A stretch of 64,000 nt of DNA, taken from contig CM119267.1 of the NCBI GenBank assembly GCA_051294375.1, positions 22,631,486-22,695,485 of the forward strand. Direction: 5' to 3'. This DNA is from Paraspadella gotoi (Eukaryota > Animalia > Chaetognatha). Position 1 is the stretch's first letter. Every line of letters begins with the position of its first letter. A program made the position numbers and the translations under genes. This document shows, piece by piece, positions 3,801-61,952 of the stretch. Under the pieces are notes generated by a model, which saw nothing but the letters and a program-made list of their open reading frames with translations, had not been told where the DNA came from and searched no databases.

Positions 3801-6800
3801 CCCATTTAGTGTGCCCAATGGGTATGGGATATTTTTCCGTCAGTTGCCTTGCTTTCCAGAACTTTGGTTCCGGCGATAGGATTAACCGGCCCGTCATTCT
3901 TTTTGCAAGAAGCCGTGACCATTGGGTTCGGAGATGAAGTTTAAGCCCAGTGCGTTATTACGGCGCTGATAGAAGGAACAGTCGTATCCTGAAAATACAG
4001 ATCTGCTCAAAAAAAAGTTTAAACTTTGAACCCCCTACTATCTTGCTTGTCCGTCGTCCTATTAATTAAAACTTGGGTTCATTTGAAAGCCAAGACAAAG
4101 ATCTTTCATTCGAGCCCATAAGGTTTTTAGGCTAAATATTATAGAAGCTGTGCTAAAATAAAATTATTATAAAATAGTAAATTTTAAAAATATTTTTTTA
4201 AAAACTTATATTAAAGATTCAGATTCTTTTATAAAAAGTTGAATCAAAATATAAAACATGTTATTAAAAATTCTGTTATCTTCAGCATTTAAAGCGGGAA
4301 AAAAAGTGAAAATTTTTGAATTTTTATTCTCTGAAGTAGAAATTTATATATGTTAAAACGTTTTAGTTATTTTTTGCGATCCAAACATAAAAATATCATA
4401 TAACATATTTTATAAAAGTTTTTTAGTTTTTTATAGCAAATCCATATCCATATCTGTTCTAAAAATTTTTTTTAAAAATATCTTTAAATTTAACAATTTT
4501 ATAAGTATATTACTACATAAATAATTAAATTTACTATACTGTTATGCTAAAAATATTTTTAAAAGGATTTAAAATTCATTAATTACATATCCATAGGTAG
4601 CAAAAAAATAATGTTCAATCACTCAATCTTTTCATCACTCCACCCTAATGTCCACAGAGAGCAAGGATGACGACCTAAAAAGTCTCGTAATTCAAGACCG
4701 TAAGGCTTCTGCAAACTAGTTGAGAAAAAAATAGAGAGAAGAAAAAGGAATTGTTACCAGTCATTTAACAATGAATAAGCGGTTTTTCATGGAGGATGGA
4801 GCTCCTGGATTCAAAGTCAAAGCCACTCAAAAATGTCATGAGGAAAACAGGATTGAGGTGCTCGAAGGTTGGCCCAGAAACTCTCCTTACTGCAACATAA
4901 TCCAAAATGTCTGGTCAAGGATAAAAAGGGAAATTTTGCAGTACAATGCCACGATAGTTGATAAAATCAAAAAAATTGTAAAACGCATTTGGCTGGAGCT
5001 GAACCCTTCATATTTGCGCAGCCCCTACGACTTTCTCCCTTGTCGCATGGAAGCGGTGCTGGAAGCAAATAGTGGTTCGACAATGTATTAATTAACTGAG
5101 TTCTAAAAAGTATTGTTTACCTTCAAATAACAAAAAAAAAGCTTTTATCATAACTATTAAACTTTTTTTGGACCAGATCTGTATCACTGTTTAAAAACCA
5201 TGGGCACTCTATTCTGAAAGTGCCCCATTCCTGTTCCCAAATCACTAACTTTAATCGCTAAAGTTCACACTTAGCCCAAGTTGATAGCCTAATCTTTAAA
5301 TTAATCCCTCACTTAATCTGTAACCTTCACCTTTAACCTAACTTTTAACCTAATTCTGTACTTTTTAAGATTTAGGAAAATAAATAAATAAATAAATTTT
5401 AAAATAGACTATTTAGAAATATTATGTCTTTCGATTTTTAAAACTTTTAAGCACTACCGCATTTAGATCATTCAATTCTGGCTCGGGGTCAACCTATCTC
5501 CCACTGATCGTAGCTGACTGTAAGAGAAAACTAGACTCTCGTTTTTAGTCGGATCTGCTTTCAGCAGATCCCGACTCTATAATTCACTTTGTCAGTCCAT
5601 CGGTCCGCCCCCTTAATCTTGTCAGAACATCAAATTATGAAAAATTATGCAAAAAAAATGATATCCGTCTGTCTGTCTGTCTTTCTGTCTGTCTGTCCAT
5701 CCGTCTGTCCCACCTTAGCAAAAAGCTTCAATAACTCGTGATTGGGTGGTTAGATTGGAATGAAATTTTGTGTGTGGGTAGGAAAGTGTGTGATGAAGTT
5801 TCTATGGAATCGTGCGAGTGGAAATGAGTTTAAATGGAAAAAATATAAGTCGCATTTACTAAAATCTTTTTACTTATTTTAACTAATAATTACTCTAATT
5901 AATCATAATTGGATGGATAAATTGAGTTGAAATTTTGTGTATGGGTAGGAAAGTGTGTAACGAAGCTTGATATAAATAGAGTAGAAATGAGTTTAAATGG
6001 AAAAAATATAAGTCGCATTTACTAAAATCTTTTTACTTATTTTAAACCCATAATTACTCGAATTAATCATAATTGAATTAATAGATTGAGATGAAATTTT
6101 GTGTGCGGGTAGGAAAGTGTGTGAAGAAGCTAGATATAAAGTTTTGATGGAATTGTGCCAGTGGAAATGAGTTTAAATGGAAAAAACATATGTCACATTT
6201 ACTTGAATCTTTATTATTTATGATTAATAATAAATGTTTTAATTCATTAATTAATTAATATGAAAAAATGATGCAAGTTGAAAAAATGAATGCAAGTTAA
6301 AAAAAAGATGCAAGTTAAAAAAATGATGCAAGTTAAAAAAATGATGCAAATTGTAAAAATTATGCAAATTAAAAAAATGATGCGAGTTGAAAAAATGATG
6401 CGAGTTGAAAAAATGATGCGAGTTAAAAAATGATGCGAGTTGAAAAAATGATGCGAGTTGAAAAATGATGCGAGTTGAAAAATGATGCGAGTTGAAAAAA
6501 TTATGCGAGTTTAAAAAATTATGGGAGTTAAAAAAATGATGCGAGTTAACAAAAATTTTAAAAAATATTGTGATTTAACATCTGATTAGCTGATTACCGC
6601 TTAATTATTGTAGGCAGATCCGACATTGTTTGCTCAAACTTGTTAATATTACTAACCGTGTGCACCTCACTGAAAAAATTATACTTAAAGATATATTGAA
6701 TGGATACAAAATAACTTCCCATGGGAATCGCGATAATATAACCCAAAACAAATGTTTTTTCCAATATTTAATTAATTCCGGAGGGTCCTTTTATAAAAAA

Positions 6801-9800
6801 AAATAAAATAAATTGAATAAGAAACACGTGCTATATACAAAAACTCACCTTAACAAACTTTCCACTAGGAGAATAAAAAGAAAGATGAGCTATTAGATAG
6901 GTATCACAAGCAATGTACCCATCTAACACAGCGTTAAGACACCACATCCAGGTTTGGTTGATCATTATACCTGATTGCAATGTAGCAAAATATGCAGAGA
7001 GGAAGTAGCCAATGAGACTCAAGGTTAAATAAATATCTATCCCTGGTTTGATAACATAAAAGGTATGCAAAAGAAATATTTTTTCTATCCATTTCCACCC
7101 TTTCGTCGAGGCACCATGAAATCCAGGCTTCAAGGTTTGCGTCCTTCTCACAATGCGATTTACTTTCCCTTTAAAAGCCTTGTGTGGCAACCTTGAGGCT
7201 TGAACCTCCTCGAGAGCATATTCGATGGCTGGAGCGATCCTTACAAAGGATTTTTGCCAACAGCTTAGAATTCTAGAATTTTCAGAAATAATTTTTTCCA
7301 ATCGATTGTGGTTGATGACCTTGGCTTCGACATTTGTCAAGCTAATGACAGTTGAGAGTTGAAGCACTTCACAGAGGGGCAATCTGGGAACTTGGCCTCC
7401 GGCATTAATAAACTCTGTCACGCCTGTAACGTCCACGACAGCACATTGTCCACGAATGATTTTGTAGACGCAACTCGTATAAGAGTCCGCACAAGATAAG
7501 AAAACTCCTGGTGGGAAATGAAGCGTCCTTGCTCCATAGGAAGCCCGACTTATCAGGATCTCCATTTCCAGCATTCCCATGGTCCAGTAAGAAAGGTCGA
7601 AACGCTCAGGAACTACGGACATCTTTTTGATCGCCTTGGGTGTTTTCTCCAAAAGTCGGGCTTCTTCGGGGAGATAGACACAGTTTGTCGTTACCTTAAT
7701 GTGTATCACGTAGTCGTACAGGACCTTCTTCAAAAGAGGTGAGACGTGATAAAAGTTAAGTGTCTTGATCATGGAATCGATTTGACTTGTAAGGCGGATA
7801 AATGAATGGGAATTTCGCGCAGTGTCCGCTGAGAGTCGTCCAGACAAGGTACAGGTCAAAAGAATGGCGAACTGATTGTAAAATTTTAATATAATTGTGG
7901 CTTACCTATTTATATTATTTCTTGCTATATTCAAAATTAATGAAACAAATTTGTGCAAAATAGAACAGAAATACTCTTAATCTTTCATTTTTTCAATTAA
8001 TCAATAGACAATTACAGTCCAGTGCAAAAAAGAGGACACTCTTCAAACTTAAGTTGCGCTCGTTTTACGAATACATTATAAAAAATTATGAATGATAAAT
8101 ATAGATTTTAAAATAGGAAATCCATATGTGAAAGTTTAAAGAAAATCGGTGCAGTCATTCAAGAGCTTTAGCTTCCGAAAGATAAGTGGTCAAAAACGTT
8201 CATCATTTTAGTGACTACAAAAAATCATATTTGAAGATCTGCCAAAAACCGAAAATACTTTTTAGCCTTAATTTATCGGCAAAATAAATAAATAAATAAA
8301 AAAATAATTTAGAGATGAAACGAAAAATTCGTTGTAATAGCAATTTTTAACACTAAGAGTCGAAACATGTACATTAATAAAAATAAAAAAATTGCTATTA
8401 CAACGAATTTTTCGTTTCATCTCTAAACTATTTTAAATAGCAAAAAAGAAAGTCAAAATACAATAAATAAATAAATAAATAAATAAATACTTTTGAAAGA
8501 GGAATCCATATGTGTAACTTAAAAGAAAATTGGTCCAGTCATTTCAGAGCAACAGCTACCACAATAGGTTAAAAATACCTTAATTTTCTTCTGCTCTGAT
8601 ATTCTGTTTGAGTACCTAGTAGTTTTAACCTAGTAGTTATTTTGAAAAAAATTTCTGCTTCGTAACGGATAGCCACGAATTAACCAAATTTACACCAATA
8701 GTTCCTTTTTCCATGAATATTATTCAGTTATAATATCTTTCATTTTAAAAGAATCTAACTTTTCATAATTTTTTTGGTGTCCTCTTTTTTTTTTTGCACA
8801 CGTAGAATTATAGACAAATGTATTTGAAATTACATTGGCTGATAAAAAAAATAGTCACATCACTATTATTATTATTTTTATAAAAATAAAGATTTATCAA
8901 AATTGATTGAAGGAAACAAACAAAGCTAAAAAAAGTTAATTTGTTGTACCTGGATCCCTATTAAACTCACATAATGAATACCATCGTCAATAATTTCAAA
9001 AGTTCGTTTACATAGACCTATTGTAAGCATACTGTCTATCATTTTGAAAAACTGAAATATATAAAATTCATAGTTGAATAGCGAAAGATATTCTTTGCAA
9101 AGTCGACGATTGCTATTAGTCATAGCCAGAGCAGTAGTCATATAATCCACATAGCTACAAAGATAATGATAATTTAAATAATTTATAAACTTAATGATGT
9201 AACAACAATCAAGAAAAGTTGTAAAACAAAGAAGTATCCAGCATTCATTATCAGCCGCGGTGGCTCCAGTATCCACGCGACTAAAAATATAAGTCAAGCT
9301 TCCGAGGTGAGAAAAAGAAACGATAAAGATAAAGAAAGAAAAGCTTAGTAGAACAAGTTCATGGTAGGACAGGTAACTGGGAAAAAAAGAAGCAATCTGG
9401 AAGCGATACGAAAAGACTTGATGAAATTCGTAATTCTTTTACTGTATATTATTTTTATAACATTTATTAGTTTGAAAACTACTTGACGTTTATGTCGACC
9501 TAAAAAATGTTAATAAAAATTTATTAAAAAAATGTTATAAAAATAGAAGTTTTTAGAGATACAAAGTCAGTTTGGTGGTTTGTTATAATAAAAAAATTAT
9601 TATGTAAAACCTAACTTATTTACAATGGTAACTATTATTTATCAACAATAATTTTTTTTCCCCAAGCTGACATTTTTATTTTTAATAGATTATAAATGGA
9701 AAACGTGATGATTATTATTAGGAGTAGCCGCACTCAATGGGGTGATTCAAAAATTTATCATGAGTAGATGCTCAAACAAAAATTATACAATTTTAAGTAT

Positions 9801-45623: not shown

Positions 45624-46277
45624 GTGACCGATATGAAGGAGGTATTTGGAGAAAGGCCGTATCAGTCTCTAAAGTTTAAAGCATCGAAATCTTTTTGAAC
45701 CGAAAGAGATGGAACGAATGAAGATGAGAAGGGGGGGGTTGTGGGGGTGGGCCGGGTAAAGGATGGTTTGATCTAGGACGGTTAAATCATAATTCACGGA
45801 TATGATTAAGATGGAAGGGAAACTTTGGTCGGACATCGATAGATGAAATCATTCCGGACCTCGGATTACAGTTTTTAACTGACGGACTCTTTATCGACAA
45901 TTATTTATTGATTGAAAAAAATAATTATAAAATAAATGGATATTTTTTATCATAACTATACCATTTTCATAGTAACAAGATCCACGTGAAACGTTCTTTA
46001 GTCGCTTATGTTGAGATTTTAAACTAATTTTAAACTAATTCTTTGTACCTGATGTTTGATAACCAACTAATTTCACCTGATTTTTCTAGTTTTCTCGCGA
46101 AGCCAATATCAAAGTCATGTTCAAAATTTGAATTTTGAAATCAATACAAAGAGCCCAAAACATTACTCAGTTTTATTCAGCCAAATGAAACGGCAGTGTT
46201 CAACTATTCCACAAACGAAGAGAAAAAAAAATCTTTAAAAATCTACACCGACAACAAATAGACAAAAGAGTTCTGTT

Positions 46278-49200
46278 TCATTCAACCTTGACCCTCTCCA
46301 CCAACTCGCCCGCGTCGATCTCCACGATCATCTTCGGATGCAGCAAGTTGGTGTCCACGAGTCCGCCGATGAGGAAGAGACGCTTCGACGCGGGCACGCC
46401 CACCGTCTGGTGCTCGCTCAACCCCCTCGCCTCGCCCTCTCCCCCTTCCTCCTCTCCCATCTTCCTCGCGGGCGAGACGCTCCGAAATCTCTCCCTCTCC
46501 TCCTCCTCTTCCTCTCCCGCCTCCTCCTCTTCCTCGTCCAGCGCGGGCAGGTCGCGAAGGCGGCGCCACTTGAGGTCGTCGACGGAGAAGTGGAAGCACT
46601 CCTTGCGGGCGGAGCGGCCGTCGTAGCCGCCGCAGAGGACGAGGGATGTGGAGGATGTGGAGGATGGGGCGTTGAGAGACTCCGCTTCCTCGAGGGGTTC
46701 TTCCTTTGAGAAAGGCGGGTCGTCTTTATCAGGTTCGAGGGTCTGAGTTGGAAAGGGTCGTTGATTAGACGTGATTGGTTTGGTCGGTTTCGCTGATTGG
46801 CTGTTTTGGTTTGGTTGGTAGATTGCTGAGTGGGTGGTTAGCGTGTTTTGATTGATTGGTGGACGTGAGCGATTCATAAGAAAAGTTTGTTGGATTTTAT
46901 TGTAAAATTAAGTTTCTTTTGACTACTTTGTTTGACCGCTTGATGAATTTGGTTGGTTAGGGATCGATTGATTTACTGGTTCAATTAATGAAGAACTTCA
47001 TAACTCATATCAATCACTCCACAAAACACTCCATCAACCAATCAACCCCACCTCTTCCCCCCACAACGCCGTCAACGACGTGTAGGTGAGTCTCGGCGGG
47101 ACGGCGCCGCCCACGTCGAACCGGCGCCACTGGAGAGAGACGAGGCAAAGGCAGTGGAGGTCGGTCAGTCGGCGTCTTTTGGCGTCGTAGCCGCCGAAGA
47201 GGAAGACACGCCCATCTGGCGTCGTCGCGTGGGAGGCGTGAGATCGTGGGGAAGGACGGAAACTGTCGTTAGGGGGGGGGGAAAGAGGGGGAGTTCAAAG
47301 GGACACTGGACCTGGAAATGGGACATTTTTTGTAAACATGCAGCGAGATATTCATTATTCAACCGAGCCTTCTCCAGTAGTGGACAAGCTATTGAATATA
47401 AATCAATAGCGAGAAAGCTCAGGGAACTCAGAGACATTCAGAGGTGTAGACAATTCCCAAAGGAAGAGAAGTTTGATTTTTTTTTTCGAGGTTTTTCGAC
47501 TTTGCTTTATACTCACGACCCAGTGGTAGTGACGCTTTCAAATTTCATTCAAAACTGATAACCCTTCAATATTTACCAAGCACAGACTCACTCTCACTCA
47601 AAACTCACCCCGAAGTGGCCACTCTTTTCAAACTTACCCAGCACTGACCTACTCTCTCTTCAAAACTTACCCCGAAGTGGCCACTCTCTTCAAACTTACC
47701 CAGCACTGACCTCTTACTTTCAAAACTTACCCCGCGCTGGCCACTCTCTTCAAACTTACCCAGCACAAAACTCACCCCGTAGTGGCCACGCTCTCCCAGA
47801 TTCTCGTATCGACGTTGAAGGCGATGAGTTGATTGTTGACGCCGTTCTTGAAGGCGCCGTCGGTGGCGATGTATTCGTCACGTGACGTCAAAGGGTCGCC
47901 GCATCCGCCGAACGCGAAGAGACGCCGACCCCACGCCCACCCGCAGTGGCGCCATCTCGGGCTTGGGACTTTGGATAGGGCGGGGACGAGGCGCCATCTG
48001 TTTGTGTGTAGTATGTATGACAATTTATAAAGACTAAACCTACGGAAAGTTGATTATTAATATTATTATTTATTATTCTTTGTAACATTTAATTTGCTGC
48101 GTTTAGCCATTCCGTCCCTCTGACCAAAAGATCGAAAAATCACTCACTTGATCGTCTGCAGATCGAGTCGATTTACGACATTGGAGGGAACGCCCTCCAC
48201 GCATCCGCCAAAGACGAAGAGGGCGTCGTCGATCACCGCGGACGAGCATTTCGAGGTCGGCGGCGGAACCTCGCCCGTAGTCACCTGTTCAGTTTCTGAT
48301 TATTATGCTTTAACATGGATATGAAATGGTCTTGATTATACAAATTTCAGTTTCTGATTATTATGCTTTAACATGGATATGAAATGGTCTTGATTATACA
48401 AATTTAATAACGGTTAAAGAAACGAAAAATCGAAAACCTTTGTGCAAACGCATGCACCCTGGCGGAAACAGGGAGCAATCAAATAACAGACAGCTTGCCT
48501 TTCTTTCACCTCCGCCAAGCATTGAATCCAATGGGTCACTAAACCTTTCACCTACCCCCGTACACCTACCCATCTCATTCACACCCTCACGCCTTCCAAC
48601 CTCACTTCTCTCCGTCACTCACCTCCCGGTCGAACTCCCTCGACTCCGGATCCAATCGCCAGACGACGTTGGGCGGAAGATCAAACCATTTTCCTTTTCG
48701 CATTTGACGCCCGCCCCAAATCCAGATGACGCCCTCGTAGAGAAACGCCACGTGGGCCGCGCCCACCGGCCACGTCTAGGATCGTGAATGGGATTTTAGT
48801 GGTATTTTCAAGACGGACTGTTTAGTTAATTAATCTGGTTAATGAAAATACTTAACTTACCGGATTATGAAAGGAATGACAGAATTGAATTTAAATTATT
48901 GAATGATTGAATGAATGAATGACAAAATGAGTAAATAACAGACTGATTAATAACAATCTAATGAATAAATGAAAAAAGTGACAGAATGAATGAACATTCA
49001 ATAATTATTAAATAAATCTTGAAATCTCTGAAAAAAAACCAACCTTAGCTGGCGGAACTTGTAAAGGCTGAAGCGGCGGACAGCGGATGAGTATCATGGG
49101 CAAATCCATAAATTCTGGGTAAATTTTTTATAAATTGATTAATAAATTATACATAAAAAAAAAACCCATCATTCATTGAACAACGAACCTTTTTCGTCTT

Positions 49201-49307
49201 CTTCCTCTTCTTTGTCATGAGAGTTCGTTCTGTTCGTCAGACTTGAAACTGATTGTCGTTGCGCTTCTTTGAGGCGCTTTCGATCTTTGGTGCAGGGACG
49301 ACGAACT

Positions 49308-49385
<78 letters not shown>

Positions 49386-50398
49386 TTTTTATTCCTTGGG
49401 AAATCAAAGACTTCAACAGCGCCACCTCTGGGCGAAGAAAGCGGCGTTCTCACGGCGGCGTCGTGGTTCGTTTCGGCGTCGTTGGTGTCAATTCCGGCGA
49501 CGCGCGTTTTCTCGTTTTCGTCTTTGGTTTCGTCGATCGATTCGGATTTGACGAGAAATTCTCCGCTGATGTCTCCCTCGCCGTTACTGTGGCACTCGCT
49601 ATTGCTGTGGCACTCGCTATTGCTGTGGCCGTCGCCATTGCTGTGGCCCTCGCTATTGCTGTGGCCCTCGCTATTGCTGTGGCCGTCGCCATTGCTGTGG
49701 TCGTGGTCTTTGCCGTCTCCATAGCTATGAGCGTCGCCATTGCTGTGGCCAGAGCTGTGGTCTTGGCCGTCACCATTGCTGCTGTCGTGGTCGTGGACGC
49801 AATCGGACTGCGGATCTTTGTCGGCGTCGACTTCACCAGCAGGAGATATTTTCTGCTTCAAGTAATCCAGAATGAACGGTCGACGCGCCGCTGAAAGATA
49901 TCAATAATTCATCAAATGCATTAAACCATCACTTTTCTTAATATTTATTTCATCTTGACTATATCTTTTCTTATCTTTTATAATAGTAGTACATTACTTA
50001 GTAACTTACCTCTAGCGGGAGTTTCTTTTGTCGCAACATCTTCAGCCGTCGTCGTCGTCGGTTGAGGCGCTTCTTCGGGAGACGCTCCATTGACCGCCTC
50101 CTCCGGATCCTTCTTTACGCCAGGGGACAATCCATCGTCCACGGACGCCACCGACTGCGCTAATTCGTCGTCCGGGGCTGTCCTCGCCCCAGTCGTTGCT
50201 GGTTTCGTTTTGTCTTCGAAGCTTTCTCCTCTCCCTCCTCCTCCACCTCCGAGCTCGTTCAAAGGCGCCTCCACCGATTCCAGTCTCGTTTTCTCCTTCA
50301 ACTCAGCAGCGGCCGGCAGCTTTCGTGGCGACGGAACCCCGTCGCAACGGCGCCGCTCGAGGCTGCCCTTCCGCTCGGCGCCGTCGGAGTAGAAGGCC
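46278..50398 (-). CDS. Low-complexity/His-rich linker exons plus a six-bladed Kelch propeller (KLHDC1/2-like); probably the 3' half of the kinase-KEN gene
   Basis: Kelch blades HVAFLYEGVIWIWGG, SSAVIDDALFVFGG, PSPRWRHCGWAWGRRLFAFGG, PSPRSHASHATTPDGRVFLFGG, SLVLCGG, HQTVGVPASKRLFLIGG; stop at 46278; splice phases compatible except the last junction (ambiguous). Confidence 0.85.
47600..47790. repeat. Intronic ~60-bp tandem repeat x3 derived from an exon end and 5' splice site
   Basis: aaaactYaccccgaagtggccactctcttcaaacttacccagcac repeats and matches the true junction aaaactcaccccgtagtggccac (~47767-47789). Confidence 0.8.
48289..48404. repeat. Perfect 58-bp tandem duplication in an intron
   Basis: tcagtttctgattattatgctttaacatggatatgaaatggtcttgattatacaaatt x2. 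Confidence 0.85.
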
Positions 50399-50778
50399 TG
50401 GTAAAAAAAACACGCGAAGACAGTTGATAATTTTACTCAAAATTAAAGAGTCAACTGTCTAATTTTTTTGGCTTTTCATTCGTTCGATCAAATATAACGG
50501 CCCGTTAGCTGTTTTTTTTTCGATATCTTCCGTCTTATATTTTCTCTCTCTCTCTCTCGTTCGCTCGCTCGCTCGCTCTTTCGCACTTGCTCTCACTCTC
50601 AGGCATTTTCTCTCTTTCTCTTTCTCTCACGCCGCTAACATTTATTTTCTCCCTTTCTTTAATTATTATTGCTTTAATTTCTTCTATTTTATTTTAAATA
50701 ATCTTAAAAAACTATTAACATTCAAAAATCTAAAAAAAAAAAGTGAATAAAATATAATCTATTCTCACTCGATCTTAC

Positions 50779-51683
50779 CTCGTCCCTCTCAGCGACGCCG
50801 GGCGACGTCCGCCTAGAACCCGGGACCGGGCGCCCTCCTTTTCTCGAAGACCGACGCCGCGCGTACCTCTCCAAGCCTCGCAGCGGCGTCGCGCGCCGCG
50901 AAGGCACCGGCGTCGCCATGGTCTCCATAAACTCGCGATGCGCATGCGCGAAGTTGATGTGATAACGCTTCACGCAGGACAGCGACGGAAAATGATTTTT
51001 GGCGAAAGCGTAGACGTGGTTGAGAAATCCGGGAAAACGTGAGATCAAGTCCGACAGGAGGTCGTCCTCTGACGGGAAATGGCCGAAGGAAGAGGCGAGG
51101 GCGGATTCGTGGCCGTGGGTCTGTTGTTGGTATAGGAAAAGGTTGAATGAGGGAAGATGAAGGAAGGGAGAGAAAAGAGAAGAAAAGGGGCATGGAATTA
51201 AATGCTTTAACAGTTTAAACTTTAAACTCTTTATTCTTTTGCACGAGTACGGAGTTTTAAATTATGGGTCCCAATAGTGTAACCAATATATTCCTTCGTA
51301 AACAATTAGAAATGCTCAAAAACAAAAAATTGCGAACTTTAACAATCCAACTTGCGATAAAACAAAACTCAAATTTAAGCTTGTTGAGAAGCCCCTTAAA
51401 AAACGACATCGATTCCCCGAAACGTCCGTCATCTATCGGCACAATATTTTTTAAAAAATGCCAAAAACCTGCGTCAAAAAGTCTTTGGCGTAAAAGAGCA
51501 ACCCGGCGGCGGAGTCGTCGTAAAATTCGTCGTCACCGCTCGCTCGACAGTGCGAGTCTAATACGGAAGAGTCGACGGCCTGGCGCCAATCTTCATCCGG
51601 GGAGAAGAGGTGAAGCATGTAGCTTCGAATTCGGCGGCGACTGAGGGATCGAGGGAAGGATCGAGGAAGCAGTCCGAGATCTG

Positions 51684-51772
<89 letters not shown>

Positions 51773-54307
51773 GAAGAGGGTGGAAGACAGAGAAACAGAA
51801 GAGGTGGTAATCGATAATGCCTTTTATTTTTCCTCTCTCTCTCTCTCTTCTCTCTCTCTTTCTCTCTCTCTCTTTTCTCTCTCTCTCTGTCTCTTTTCCC
51901 ATAGATAGTGCGAGAGATGTAGGAAAATGAATTGCATAATACATAATGAGAGTTATGGAGAGAAAAAGAGAGTCACAGTAGACAGAGAGACGCAAAACCT
52001 GAATGATCGCGTGAATATGCGCCTCGGCGGACCCGAAAAGAGGATGTCCCTCCACTTCCTCCATGGTGACCCTCTTGGAGGCCTCCGCCTGCGTCAGCGT
52101 CCACACCAAGTTCCTCGCCAACTCTCCGCATTTCGAGGTGAGGAGTTTCGGTCGGACGCCGTCCTCGATGTTGCGTTGGGTCAGGCGGTTCGTGCGGCGA
52201 CGGCCTATGAAAGGTTTGGAGGATGACGAAGACGATTACAATGACGAGGATCTTAACAATGACGATAACGATTACGCTGACAAAGACAACAACGATGACG
52301 ATAAAAGTTACGAAAACGATAAAAACGACGAGAACAATGACAAAGAAAGAGAAAATGACAACAAGGATGACAACGAGAGTGAAAATGACCAAACGATTAT
52401 GATAGTAACAACGACCTTCGAAGGGATGTTCGCCCGAGAGGATCTCGTGAAGGACGATTCCAAAGGCGAAGACGTCGCTGAGAATGTACGAGGACGAGGA
52501 CATCTCCGTCGCCGACGAATCCATCATGAACAACTCGGGCGCCATGTAGAGGGGCGTGCCCTGGAGGGAGAAGATAACTGGACGGTAATTTAATACTTTA
52601 ATCTGGACGAATTACTAGCGTTAATCATAATGGAGTAATACAAAAATCACTATTCGGCGTTAAATTCGATGCTCTTCTGTTGAGCCTAAAGTCAAATCGC
52701 GATTTGTTTTTAATGACATCTGGTGCGGTTTCTAAAAAGCATAAAGAATTAAACAGACCAACAGATAGACAATCAGACTGTGACTGTCAATTCTACTAAT
52801 GGAAAAAAGTCCCTTGCTACCTGAATATTTAGCGGATATGCATAAATGTCCTTATATTGGCAAAAATATAAGCCCTATAAGTTCACTAAGTAATCTGCCG
52901 ATTCTTTACGATTGATTAATGATTAATTCTCAGTCTCTGTATGAATTATTCACGTTGAGCGTATTTGCAGGATCCCGGGATTCGTATCATTCAAAAAGAG
53001 AAAGCGAAAGATAAAGATTAACTAATTAACGATTTAATAATTGGTTTCCTTTCGTGACTGTATTTGTGATTATTTATATTACAGCGGCCCATGGTCTTCG
53101 GACCTGCATTCTGAAATAAAACAAATTACAAATTCTAACCTGCAGCAAATTCGTCTTGGTGGAAGTGCGACTCAAGTCGATGACTTTTGCGATCTCGAAA
53201 TCCGACAGTTTGAAAGTAATTTCGCCTCGCAAGTCCTCGTGGATGAGAATGTTTGCTGGCATTAAATAAATTAAAAAAAGCAAAATAAATAAATAAATCT
53301 ATAAATTATAAAATGGGAACGATCAATCTCTGAGATAAAAAATGACCCCATTCATCAAATCAATAACATCAATCAAAAACACCTAAGCTTGAAGTCACGA
53401 TGCACGATCTGGTGGATGCCGCTGTATCGTCCGTGGACGTACTTCAGCGACGCCGCCACGCGACCCACGATCTCCTTCCGGAGAAACCTGGACAAGACGC
53501 GCTTGGACAGCGCCGTCATCTCAGGGTCGCCCGGATCCGGCGACAAGACGTCGCTCATGGATCCGCTGCAGCGCTGCAGCACGATTATTATCTGGTTTCC
53601 GCGGTCGACGCAGCCATAGTATTTGACGACGTGCTCCGTCTCGCGAGTTCCTTACCATTTTAAAAGACGGGGTGAGTTTATCTTGATTCGTTTAAGTAAA
53701 CAAAGAAAAAAGTTTCGATACTGGAGAGATATAATTTTTATTAAAATTTTCAACTTTTCAACTTTTAAACTTTATTGCACTTTATGAAATTGTTACAAGT
53801 TACAACCTATATAAAAATTATCCAATCGTGAAATAGATAAACTATATTCCCTTTTATCATTTGGCCAATCTAGGTAAAAAAAAATAGAAATTAATTAACA
53901 TGCTTTGGTGTTAAAAATATTTTTCGCGCTAAAATGATTCACCTTATAAATCTGCGCCTCCTTAACGATCTGACTCCTCAGAAAGGCGTCCTGTCCGTAA
54001 GCGAACCACCTTCGCCGCCGCCTCCACGTCTCTCCCGCCGGCGTCGTCGCGCAACGAAGCGCCGCGTGGATGGTGGAGCCGCTGGCCACGCCCTGGCGGC
54101 GCCGGTCGAGACGCGAGTCAAAGTCGATGGAGACCTGAGCGGACGCAGAGGCAGAGGCGTAATATGAGGAGATTCAAACTTTGATATCAGTTAATCATTT
54201 TTTGGGTTTAGTTTTAGTAAAAATCATTAATTAACACAACGCTTATATTTAAAATAAAAAAGTAGTGTTCGCTAGTTTTTACTTGAGCTGCGAGAATTGA
54301 AGTCCAT
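50779..54307 (-). CDS. IRE1/RNase L-like protein kinase plus KEN-like domain, no luminal/TM region seen; several 1-nt frameshifts (assembly errors or pseudogene); start uncertain
   Basis: AAAKVV, IVKE, HVVKYYG, IVHRDFK, NILI..KLSDFEIAK, GTPLYMAPE, SDVFAFG..LSGEHPF, KRVTMEEVEGHPLF; KEN-like ISD..DWRQAVD..Y..SAAGLL..LISRFPGFLNHVY. Confidence 0.8.
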
Positions 54308-54589
54308 GTTTAGAAAGGTAAGTATTTTGTTCCTTCGTTAAAATGAAGGGTAAGCCTTTCGCCTTGTCTCAAAAATCCAAAGCAAAGCGGCCGTCCATGG
54401 CGACCATCTAAATCTATCGTTGTCGTTGCCGTCGTCGATATTTTTTCGTTGTCTCGTTGACTTGACTGACTCCATCTCTGTCAAGGTTGGCCATTCGTCG
54501 ATGAGTCAATGCGTAACTAAAATCAACATTAGTTTTAAAGAAGAGAATGAGGATGAGAGAGATGAAGACGAGAGAGAGCAGAGAGAGAG

Positions 54590-59228: not shown

Positions 59229-59876
59229 CCCGTTTCACTCTCATTCACTTTCTCTTCATAAACAGACGCCCATTCCTCGCTATTTTTTTTTCACCAAAAT
59301 TAATTTTCACAAAATTTTTGAAAAAAAATTAACCCCACCGAAAAAAGTCACTGAAACCATATTTTTTCTATTTTTTTTTCATATTTTCTCCATACTCGGG
59401 TTTTAATTTAAAGCTGGAAATTAAATTCAGACGTCACGACGGAGATTAATCCATCGAGAGCCATGGCGCGTCTCCTTCGCTGCCCCTCGTCTGCGACGTC
59501 CGATCATCCGAATCCTGATTCCGACTTCTCGTCCTCTTCGTCTTCGTCGTCGTCTTCGTCGTCGTCGTCGTTTTCTCTCGAGGGGGAAATAAAATATTTC
59601 CCTGGTTACATTTCCTCGTCGAACTAAAGCCCTTTCCAGAAAAAAAAAAGGAAAGCTAACGTCGCCTCTTCTTTTTCGATGTTCCCTTGAAAAGGATAAA
59701 AAGGAAAAGTCCTTGACGAAAAGAAAACAAGAAGACGCGCGGTTCGAAGGATGAAACGTCGTCGTCGACGGACGACGTTTTGACATCCGCCCACTCTTTT
59801 ATCGACAATCCCCCTATTACCGTTTTTTCTCTCGAGCGTCTCTCTTATCACTCGAGATCCCGCGTCGGCTGCGCCC

Positions 59877-61952
59877 ATGACCGAGTCGGGGTCGGCGCTC
59901 CAGGATCACGGAGGAGCCGTTCCGCCCTCGTGCCGCCTCGCCTCTCCATCGTCGTCGTCCTCTGCCGCCGCGGGATTAAATAATCATGAGACTTTGGAGC
60001 CTCCGACGACTTCAACGGCTCCTTCGTCGATCTGTCAATCTCGTCGCCGAGTTCCCGAGGACAAACCGCCGCTGAGTCCGCCAACCGTCGCCGTTTCGAC
60101 GTCGTCTTCACCGCGGGTCGCCGTGTCGTCAAGCTCCGCGGGCGCCGCGAAAACTAGACCGCCGATGGCGCCGTCGCCGTGCCAGCGTTCCGATGCCTCG
60201 GCGGACTGCGTGGAGCAACTCCACCGGATGCTGTTGGCGTTGGACGATCGGGGGAAGCGGTCTTCGTCGGAACCGCCGCCGCGAGGCCCGTCGGCCGCCG
60301 ATGAGGAATTAGACTCGCGATCGGCGAAGAAAATTCCCGTCTTTCAGGTAAATCTGACTTAAATGAAAAAAAAAGTGGTCGAATTAGTTTGTTAAAGGTT
60401 ACAAAAAAAGGTAAGCATTCTTATCTAATTATAGACAGTAATTAAACGACGGCAAAGATCACTTTTTCTCTCGTTTCCGATTCCTTTTTTTATTTCGGGG
60501 AGGCGGAGGTGAGATAGGTAAAAGAAAATAAAAGGTCAGACTCGAATTCCAGTGACTGAGTGCGAGAGAGCGGAGAAAAAAACTTTGGCTTTTTGACAAT
60601 TTTGATTCTTTAGCAGGAAAAGTAGTTACATTGATATACCTTCCTTTGAAACGCCTACACAGTAAAAAAAAAAAAGTAAGAACCCACGTCAAAAGAATAT
60701 ATATTCGAAGTTGGGAGTTCGATTAATTCGTTCGCGAAATGTTTTAAACTTTAAATTCGGCGGTAAGCGTGTGTCTGGCCTCGAGGAGTAATCATTTTCG
60801 GAGTTGTTTAAAATTGCCAGATCCGAGAACATGAGTTTTTTAAACTTTTTTTTAAAAAATTAACTAGAAGGGAAAACTGATGGGAAATGAGAAATGGCAC
60901 TTTACTCTATAACGTAAAACTTTTTTTTCATTTAACTGTTATTTCTACCGTTCTCAGTTGACGCCGCCTTCGACGCCGTTGGAACTCTCCCCACCTCCGA
61001 CCACGATGTCGGCGCCCGCATCAACTAAGTCTACCTCGTCTCCGGACGCCGAGGATCGTCAAAACTGTGACGTCGTTTCCTCCGGCGCCGGATCCCTCGG
61101 CTCCGCCTCAGTTCAACCCTCCCCGCCTCTGCCTTGTGAGGGCGCCTGCGGTCTTTCCCCGGACTCGCTCGATCAGCAACATCAGCAGCAATCCAACATG
61201 ATGGAGCACCTTCGCAACCTCATCCTGCTCATGGAGGAACTGAGCGCGTTGCGGCGGCAAAACAATCACCTCACGGAAAAAGTGGAGTACCTGGAAAACT
61301 CTCAGATGCTGCTCAGGTGCAAAGCGTCGATGCTTCAGGAAAACTGCAAGTGCCATAATCACTCTTTCGAGCTCGCCACGCTCAGCCGCAAGATGCAGCG
61401 TTCAAAGAAACTCAGCCGGAAATCCGGTTCGGACAAATCCTTGCACAAGGCAGGGCAATCGGTCGTGGACGGCGGCGCCCATGCGGTGGACCAAACGTCT
61501 TCGGGGATCACCAACCAAATCAAGGGAGCCACCATTTCCAAGTGGGGCAAGTTTTTTACCTCGAAAAAGCCCAAGGACCTCGCGGGCGGACACGCCCCTC
61601 CCTTGATCAGCGGACCCGTCAGCCCCGTGGATTATTTGGGCGGATTCAGCGGACCAGACGGAGGGTGGAATCAGTCGAACATTCCCGACAGTCACCTTCA
61701 AGCCCTCGGTCTGCCCACTTCCAGTACTCTTATTCCCACCAAAACTGTTCCTGTGATGCCTACTTCTATCGGGCTAGTTTCGAGGTGATTTCAAGTCTTG
61801 ATAGTTGTTGTTTGTTGTTAGTTAAAACCTAATTTATTCCGTTAGCCAAACGACTTGGAACAACCTTCCGACGCCTACCTCAACCGCCTCCCAGCAAACC
61901 GAGGATGCTGGTAATCCATCGCCAACACTCTCTACTAAAAGTGAACCGATTG
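59877..61952 (+). CDS. 5' exons (59877-60347, 60958-61784, 61846-61952) of an unidentified Ser/Pro-rich coiled-coil protein; continues downstream
   Basis: GC-rich open exons with phase-compatible GT-AG introns (phase 0, phase 2); heptad segment EHLRNLILLMEELSALRRQNNHLTEKVEYLENSQMLL. Confidence 0.75.

What the first reader, a model, noticed from the sequence alone, without database searches (positions are those of the whole stretch)
46278..54307. IRE1/RNase L-like kinase-KEN module apparently fused to a Kelch propeller
After the KEN-like domain the frame stays open to a GTAAG donor (50778) and joins phase-compatible exons (approx. 50398-50010, 49891-49426, 49305-49189, 49115-49044, 48775-48623) into six Kelch blades. 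No signal peptide, luminal/TM region or ankyrin repeats are seen upstream. IRE1 uses a luminal sensor and RNase L uses ankyrins; a C-terminal KLHDC-like propeller (a family binding C-terminal degrons) would be a different sensor arrangement that I do not recognise.
Basis: partly seen in the sequence, partly recalled or inferred. Interest (0 to 1): 0.7.

Follow-up and report, generated by a model that had tools for sequence, protein, structure and literature searches.

The report
IRE1-derived kinase fused to Kelch propeller
This spliced, expressed gene joins a kinase descended from the stress sensor IRE1, whose RNA-cutting domain has lost its catalytic residues and is likely dead, to a Kelch propeller that likely binds partner proteins in place of IRE1's membrane sensor.

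Summary
The fusion is real. One RNA run splices 14 of 16 predicted junctions. Kinase, KEN and linker lie on one contig; depth sums place linker and first Kelch blade on the next. The break between them falls on a short repeat where DNA contigs also break.

The read-corrected protein has 1243 residues and no membrane helix.

KEN homology is shown through six unnamed relatives: their profile hits yeast Ire1 across kinase and KEN, and their KEN-only profile hits this protein at 40 bits. But Ire1's catalytic Arg-Asn-His reads Lys-Asp-Gln here, so the RNase is likely dead. The propeller is KLHDC-type and has no BC-box.

Best reading: a cytosolic signalling kinase with a pseudo-RNase and a tethered protein-binding propeller. 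Function is untested. The scan earlier noted a similar sea-squirt IRE1-kinase-Kelch fusion, without KEN, on other DNA (e1-9597002). I found none in print.

The parts
54283..54480 (-). Exon 1: 5' untranslated part and first 8 codons (ATG at 54307)
   Evidence: RNA contig of depth 2.9 covers 54480-54281; in-frame stop upstream of the ATG; junction to exon 2 not listed
53943..54134 (-). Exon 2: kinase N-lobe, degenerate glycine loop, beta-3 Lys49, alpha-C Glu66; three extra letters in the window shift the frame
   Evidence: (4 of 4 runs lack the three letters)
53383..53650 (-). Exon 3: kinase hinge to catalytic loop (HRD; Asp157, Lys159)
   Evidence: Pkinase E 2e-6; orthologous exon pieces P0001, P0005, P0006 at 69-70% identity, reading frames diverging right after the same catalytic-loop end
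53140..53255 (-). Exon 4: Asn162 and the DFG site, which reads DFE
   Evidence: RNA joints on both sides
52416..52560 (-). Exon 5: activation segment end (APE) and helix F
   Evidence: Pkinase E 2e-6; RNA joints
51999..52204 (-). Exon 6: kinase C-lobe end and first KEN helix
   Evidence: tblastn of unaltered relatives hits this exon, best E 1e-8; RNA contig
51469..51680 (-). Exon 7: first half of the KEN-like domain with Tyr370, Lys382, Asp383, Gln387
   Evidence: KEN-only profile alignment; missing letter at 51610 present in 4 of 4 runs
50779..51120 (-). Exon 8: second half of the KEN-like domain (His389) and basic start of the linker
   Evidence: tblastn of unaltered P0008 on the raw window, E 5e-10; RNA joints
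50010..50397 (-). Exon 9: low-complexity linker
   Evidence: RNA joints 50778/50396 and 50010/49890 on the kinase contig; composition
49426..49890 (-). Exon 10: acidic linker with eight His-Ser hexapeptide repeats (18-nt tandem repeat 49575-49700)
   Evidence: the only exonic repeated 31-mers of the gene, at 49613-49700
49189..49305 (-). Exon 11: charged linker
   Evidence: RNA joint 49189/49114; depth sum 5.06 expected and observed
49044..49114 (-). Exon 12: linker end, possibly the strand that closes the propeller (inferred)
   Evidence: RNA joints on both sides
48623..48775 (-). Exon 13: Kelch blade 1
   Evidence: Kelch_6 E 0.005; KLHDC3 E 0.003; RNA joint 49044/48775
48148..48284 (-). Exon 14: Kelch blade 2
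   Evidence: LZTR1 E 7e-15, FBXO42 2e-9, KLHDC2 7e-8
47776..47997 (-). Exon 15: Kelch blade 3 with a long loop
   Evidence: PF24681 E 1.5e-9; LZTR1 E 1e-7
47052..47262 (-). Exon 16: Kelch blade 4 and start of blade 5 (Tyr1044, Arg1050, Thr1078)
   Evidence: KLHDC2 E 2.6e-15, collinear with its residues 208-276
46278..46742 (-). Exon 17: Kelch blades 5 and 6 with two acidic insertions; stop codon; no BC-box
   Evidence: Kelch_4 E 9e-4
46172..46177 (-). Candidate polyadenylation signal AATAAA
   Evidence: the RNA contig runs 34 letters past 46200 and ends near here

Best explanation
The gene encodes one 1243-residue protein without a membrane anchor: an IRE1-derived kinase, a KEN domain that lacks IRE1's catalytic residues and is likely a dead RNase, a long low-complexity linker, and a Kelch propeller that likely binds partner proteins and so likely positions or clusters the kinase. 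Shown: the spliced exon chain, the IRE1-type kinase-KEN homology, the replaced RNase residues, the KLHDC-type propeller and the missing BC-box. Inferred: the kinase is active (Lys49, Glu66, Asp157, Asn162 and Asp179 are kept; DFG reads DFE and the glycine loop is degenerate). Inferred: the propeller grips a partner's peptide, perhaps a free C-terminus, and the roughly 400-residue tether lets kinase domains meet, as luminal clustering does for IRE1 (recalled). Inferred: the output is phosphorylation or scaffolding, with KEN kept as a structural or dimer surface, not RNA cleavage or ubiquitylation.
For: Splicing across kinase, KEN and linker on one 2117-nt RNA contig; linker to Kelch by listed joints and depth sums; similar depths of 9.2, 8.6 and 7.9. 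Relatives' profile: best PDB hit is yeast Ire1, E 6e-22, aligned through KEN. Fold of relative P0010: the top 30 of 50 listed VIA rows are IRE1 (Z 22.2-24.0, rmsd 3.9-5.8, 307-355 aligned, model range to 444-447); other kinases reach at most Z 18.3 and stop at model residue 303-314. KEN-only profile against this protein: 40 bits, E 2e-14 for a one-sequence search; best of 1370 scored shuffles (2000 made) 6.4 bits. Gln at the His column in 5 of 5 alignments; His1061 loss costs Ire1 at least 3x10^5-fold (PMC3149027, passages). No Arg-x4-6-His at the site and no BC-box match. Orthologous exon pieces at 69-70% identity show the kinase exon is conserved in at least one other source.
Against: No activity, partner or localisation was tested. 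The RNA evidence is one run from one study, as contigs, with no single molecule spanning the gene. The protein itself could not be folded or searched as a whole; KEN identity rests on a two-step link through relatives that are only 25-28% identical. Only 2 of 6 relatives' KEN pieces hit PF06479 (best E 1.5e-5), and their KEN-only profile found 0 PDB hits. Lys382 and His389 form a Lys-x6-His spacing that could replace the motif. Only 35 of 52 kinase and 6 of 13 KEN columns invariant in the relatives are kept. The orthologous pieces cover exon 3 only, so conservation of the fusion is not shown.
Confidence: 0.5

Rival explanations
1. Pseudo-RNase regulator: the dead kinase-KEN module pairs with RNase-active paralogues and switches them on or off, with the propeller supplying the trigger.
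For: RNase-dead Ire1 H1061N activates wild-type Ire1 about tenfold in trans (PMC3149027, passages). A family of membrane-less kinase-KEN proteins exists, 4 of 6 with an intact Arg-Asn-x3-His motif.
Against: The relatives come from unnamed contigs and are not shown to be in this organism (no genome held). They are 25-28% identical to this protein and form their own clade (98/99).
Confidence: 0.2
2. Active propeller-triggered RNase: the KEN site works with a shifted Lys382-x6-His389 motif and cuts RNA when the propeller binds its ligand.
For: Tyr370 aligns with Ire1 Tyr1043 (numbering counted from the printed alignment); His389 lies within the Rx4-6H spacing described for HEPN RNases (PMC3710099, passages).
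Against: Arg, Asn and His are all replaced in the conserved register. His389 aligns with a non-catalytic Gly/Gln column of the relatives. Arg is reported as necessary in KEN.
Confidence: 0.12
3. Two genes, or mostly separate transcripts: a kinase-KEN gene and a KLHDC-type gene joined by an assembly error at the 18-nt repeat or by rare read-through.
For: No RNA or DNA contig listed spans 49613-49700; the exon 10-11 joint is not listed.
Against: The exact repeat is only 34 nt and explains the break in both RNA and DNA contigs. One open frame runs through exon 10. Depth sums match exactly in 4 of 5 bins; the fifth also holds two small junction contigs. Depths are alike on both sides.
Confidence: 0.07
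4. Cullin-2/5 substrate receptor of the KLHDC family that carries a kinase as an N-terminal extension and sends bound proteins for degradation.
For: Blades 2 and 4-5 match KLHDC2 in order; the acid-binding R236/S269/R241 map to Tyr1044/Thr1078/Arg1050, like the aromatic F-S-R variant of KLHDC10.
Against: No BC-box consensus in the last 400 residues; the protein ends 27 residues after the last GG motif.
Confidence: 0.05
5. Decaying pseudogene: the frameshifts in the window are real and the kinase half is no longer translated.
For: Six coding indels cluster in exons 2-7 and none was listed in the Kelch exons (the tables were cut).
Against: Laid runs from three studies carry the frame-keeping letters, the RNA contig gives an open frame, and an orthologous piece has the same in-frame exon start.
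Confidence: 0.03

Closest known systems
IRE1 (yeast Ire1p, human IRE1alpha/ERN1), cytoplasmic kinase-KEN module
   Same: Kinase directly followed by a KEN-fold domain; best sequence and fold match of the relatives' family.
   Different: No signal peptide, luminal domain or membrane helix; RNase Arg-Asn-His replaced; DFE for DFG; long linker and C-terminal Kelch propeller added.
RNase L
   Same: Cytosolic kinase-fold plus KEN protein that gained a repeat-protein sensor by fusion (PMC10400998, parts 1-2 of 6).
   Different: Here the repeat domain is a C-terminal beta-propeller, not N-terminal ankyrins. Kinase catalytic residues are kept and the RNase residues lost, the reverse of RNase L (pseudokinase, recalled).
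KLHDC1/2/3/10 C-degron receptors (PF24681 propeller)
   Same: Six-bladed Kelch propeller, closest overall to KLHDC2; two of three acid-anchoring positions kept or conservatively changed.
   Different: No BC-box; fused to a kinase; acidic insertions in blades 5 and 6; per-exon best hits also include LZTR1 and KLHDC3, so the subfamily is not fixed.
Unnamed membrane-less kinase-KEN proteins P0007-P0012 (ENA contigs)
   Same: Short N-terminus, same kinase-KEN arrangement, 25-28% identity over about 390-445 aligned columns.
   Different: They end in helical tails, not Kelch, and 4 of 6 keep the full RNase motif.

Membership tests
IRE1 | Ser/Thr kinase followed by a KEN domain | tested here: met
   through relatives; direct
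IRE1 | N-terminal luminal sensor and membrane helix | tested here: not met
   ATG 8 codons before the kinase exon, upstream in-frame stop, highest hydropathy 1.41; no extra RNA depth pointing to another first exon
IRE1 | RNase residues Tyr, Arg, Asn, His (yeast 1043, 1056, 1057, 1061) | tested here: not met
   Tyr kept; Lys, Asp, Gln at the other three (PMC3149027)
IRE1 | Back-to-back dimer and oligomer formation | not tested
IRE1 | Nesting of the kinase within IRE1 in a tree | not testable with these tools
   no IRE1 or RNase L sequence was held in the script box; the tree lacks them
RNase L | N-terminal ankyrin repeats | tested here: not met
   no room before the kinase; no ankyrin hit in 14 exon frames
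RNase L | Catalytic KEN histidine | tested here: not met
   Gln387
HEPN/KEN RNases | Rx4-6H motif | tested here: not met
   none at the site; a Lys-x6-His spacing and an unrelated Arg415-x6-His match exist
Active protein kinases | beta-3 Lys, alpha-C Glu, HRD Asp, Asn, DFG Asp, APE | tested here: met
   K49, E66, D157, N162, D179 (DFE), APE 206-208 in the read-corrected model; motif roles recalled
Active protein kinases | Measured phosphotransfer | not testable with these tools
   needs an assay
KLHDC C-degron E3 receptors | Six-bladed Kelch propeller | tested here: met
   six GG motifs; Pfam and PDB hits per exon; whole propeller not folded
KLHDC C-degron E3 receptors | BC-box (S/T/P)LxxxC/S/AxxxPhi | tested here: not met
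   0 matches after residue 840 (consensus in PMC12035522)
KLHDC C-degron E3 receptors | R/F-S-R carboxylate anchor | tested here: inconclusive
   Tyr1044, Thr1078, Arg1050 by one pairwise alignment to KLHDC2

The most novel reading that the evidence does not exclude
A third sensor design for the IRE1/RNase L scaffold: a degron-type Kelch pocket, freed from the ubiquitin ligase, detects cut or truncated protein ends in the cytosol and clusters an IRE1-derived kinase with a dead RNase, which then signals itself or fires RNase-active paralogues of an expanded immune family.
Probability: 0.2. Interest if true: 0.78.

Novelty: new variant of a known kind. Interest (0 to 1): 0.52.

Why it matters
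RNase L arose when an IRE1-like kinase-RNase gained ankyrin repeats (PMC10400998). This gene shows the same scaffold gaining a different repeat module at the other end, while the RNase site decayed and the kinase site was kept. If the propeller reads protein ends, it would link damaged or cleaved proteins to an IRE1-type signalling output outside the ER. It also gives a natural pseudo-RNase for testing the RNase-independent and trans-acting roles of IRE1-type modules. The interest is limited by the lack of any functional data and by a lineage range that could not be mapped.

Tried and rejected
No whole genome is held, so paralogues could not be counted. Pfam found no Ribonuc_2-5A hit on the window's own exon frames (0 of 14 frames; 0 of 3 trimmed pieces). 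PDB sequence searches with single KEN-region exons gave only chance hits. Homologue searches among longer proteins with exon 8 (480 candidates) and exon 15 (52 candidates) found none; this is weak evidence. The Atlas gave no usable hit for exon 8. A single-sequence fold of exon 8 was poor (pLDDT 58) and its fold search gave no Z of 5 or more. Locus searches for orthologues found nothing in metagenome contigs or viral contigs, so the Kelch half could not be checked in another species. RNase L was not among the listed fold or sequence matches; it is not excluded by that. The tree (12 rows) joins this kinase to the relatives' clade only weakly (61/50) and holds no IRE1. No listed run is on record as RNA; X9 is treated as RNA because it skips GT-AG introns that the DNA runs keep. 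Paper searches for the architecture: searches gave 0 papers; one search gave 2 virus reviews (listing only); two searches gave 1 paper each, neither with the word kelch in its main text. Their figures were not visible; the supplement of PMC10400998 could not be read and may show domain architectures that bear on novelty; the held supplement of PMC3710099 is only 4,325 characters.
Full report
Observation. The region 46278-54307 on the minus strand holds a 17-exon gene in a GA-repeat-rich, intron-bearing eukaryotic genome. All 16 introns have GT-AG ends. Exons are 46-66% GC; the 15 introns measured are 22-46%. The organism was not identified and no whole genome is held.

Transcript evidence. Nine public runs hold the stretch; I laid 4 of them and one again alone. 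Run X9 is only guessed to be RNA, but it skips GT-AG introns: 11 spliced joints listed are absent from 3 of 3 DNA runs. Over both of 16 junctions are listed as joints, and exons 6-7 are neighbouring pieces of one contig. That contig (2117 nt, depth 9.2) runs from 54130 in exon 2 through kinase, KEN, exon 9 and exon 10 down to 49637. Joints 49189/49114 and 49044/48775 have depth 8.57. Assuming one contig of that depth covers 49426-49558 and exons 11-13 reproduces the observed bin depths exactly in 4 of 5 bins; the fifth also holds two small contigs across the exon 13-14 junction. Those two have only 29-30 letters on the short side, just under the tool's bridging limit, but that junction lies inside the propeller. 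A third contig (depth 7.9) covers the last Kelch exons and ends near an AATAAA at 46177. The break between the first two contigs coincides with the only repeated 31-mers in any exon (49613-49700), and DNA contigs of X5 and X6 start or stop at 49642 and 49671 too. So one transcript is very likely, but it rests on one RNA run and no single molecule spans it.

Window errors. In the window's own letters the kinase and KEN frames are broken. Three extra letters in exon 2 and a missing letter in exon 7 are corrected in 4 of 4 runs. A missing letter at 53643 is corrected in 3 of 3 DNA runs. An extra letter at 53254 is corrected in X1, the only DNA run with depth there; the RNA joints agree at both places. 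An extra letter in exon 1 was shown for X9. With these, the frame is open for 1243 residues, with an in-frame stop upstream of the ATG. An orthologous piece (P0005) begins exon 3 in the same frame. I read the indels as assembly errors. The exon 1-2 junction is not listed, so the first 8 residues are less sure.

Kinase. Residues about 10-304. Lys49, Glu66, the HRD Asp157, Asn162, Asp179 and APE are present; DFG reads DFE and the glycine loop lacks the usual pattern (motif roles recalled). A search of 1.84 billion representatives with exon 3 gave 4 hits. The best, P0001, and its two cluster mates are 69-70% identical single-exon pieces from unnamed contigs.

KEN domain. Pfam does not see it in the window's exon frames. 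A profile of the exon-3 alignment found 6 longer relatives among 7988 scored candidates, all membrane-less kinases with a short N-terminus. Their profile's best PDB hit is yeast Ire1, aligned through the KEN domain, with the family's Arg-Asn-x3-His on Ire1's. The predicted fold of P0010 (pLDDT 64.8 overall, first 76 residues under 50) matched IRE1 in all 32 listed Foldseek rows and in the top 30 of 50 VIA rows, to the end of KEN. The Atlas placed P0010 with clusters in which 90-96% of members carry PF06479. Only 2 of 6 KEN pieces hit PF06479 on their own, and their profile found no PDB hit. A KEN-only profile of the six hits this protein at residues 309-439 with 40 bits, against at most 6.4 for shuffles. 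Unaltered P0008 also hits exon 8 of the raw window at E 5e-10. So the domain is a divergent KEN.

The RNase site. Tyr370 is kept, but Lys382, Asp383 and Gln387 stand at the Arg, Asn and His columns in 5 of 5 alignment settings. The RNA shows no other letter there. Of the six relatives, 6 keep the His and 4 keep all three. In Ire1, H1061N lowers the rate at least 3x10^5-fold yet still oligomerises and activates wild-type enzyme about tenfold (PMC3149027, passages). His389, six residues after Lys382, leaves a small chance of a shifted site, given the Rx4-6H spacing of HEPN RNases (PMC3710099, passages).

Linker and propeller. Residues 446-845 are low in hydrophobic residues (7-23%) and include eight His-Ser hexapeptide repeats; I infer disorder. 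Six GG motifs mark six blades. Exon 16 matches KLHDC2 best (E 2.6e-15). Exons 14 and 15 match LZTR1 best and exon 13 KLHDC3, with KLHDC2 collinear for blades 2 and 4-5. KLHDC2 anchors acids with R236, S269 and R241 (PMC11470957, one passage). Counting along the printed alignment, these map to Tyr1044, Thr1078 and Arg1050, which resembles the F-S-R variant of KLHDC10 (PMC11568203, passages). This rests on one pairwise alignment. The BC-box consensus (PMC12035522, passages) has no match after residue 840.

Mechanism. I favour a cytosolic signalling kinase with a pseudo-RNase and a tethered protein-binding propeller (0.5). The next rivals are a regulator of RNase-active paralogues (0.2) and an active RNase with a shifted motif (0.12). 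Separate genes (0.07), a ligase adaptor (0.05) and a pseudogene (0.03) follow. Architecture and residue states are shown; kinase activity, ligand binding and clustering are inferred.

Comparison and novelty. It is not IRE1 and not RNase L: both membership tests fail on the sensor and on the RNase residues. It likely works like their kinase half. RNase L arose by adding ankyrins to a kinase-RNase (PMC10400998, parts 1-2 of 6 and passages). KEN fusions listed in the HEPN survey are ankyrin, CCCH, UBI and BRCT, with solo expansions in Oikopleura and monocots. None of my ten paper searches turned up a kinase-KEN-Kelch protein; figures and one supplement could not be seen. An earlier AI note reports an IRE1-derived kinase-Kelch fusion without KEN in a sea-squirt genome; I could not check it, and sequence look-ups did not link it to this stretch. 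Verdict: new variant of a known kind, interest 0.52.

Noticed in passing
window 47564-47766: A 62-nt tandem repeat (3.3 copies) in the intron after exon 15 carries three further copies of a donor-like motif (47733, 47673, 47611); the RNA contig uses the first site.
   Followed up: partly
window 48288-48405: Exact 58-nt intronic duplication just upstream of exon 14; run X6 has a contig that skips one copy.
   Followed up: no
window 49575-49700: 18-nt coding repeat giving eight His-Ser hexapeptides in the linker, a possible metal-binding or low-complexity tract; the RNA contig has 8 other letters in this exon.
   Followed up: partly
window 59784-60362 and 60913-61788 (+): Two open frames of a likely divergently oriented neighbour gene about 5 kb upstream, one coiled-coil-like; no Pfam hit above cut-off.
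   Followed up: partly
window 6834-7901 (-): 356-codon open frame with a weak cyclic-nucleotide-binding hit, E 3e-4.
   Followed up: no
window 4735-5088 (+): DDE_3 transposase remnant, E 4e-5.
   Followed up: no
proteins P0007-P0012 (unnamed ENA contigs): A family of membrane-less IRE1-type kinase-KEN proteins with DFD for DFG and, in most, long helical tails; Pfam's precomputed table misses their KEN; 2 of 6 have also lost the motif's Arg.
   Followed up: partly
window 49850-54450 versus 46200-49300: Listed differences between the window and the laid runs cluster in the kinase half, while X1 matches 46200-49298 without change, suggesting a poorly polished or other-haplotype block (tables were cut). 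The window also holds 994 N elsewhere.
   Followed up: partly
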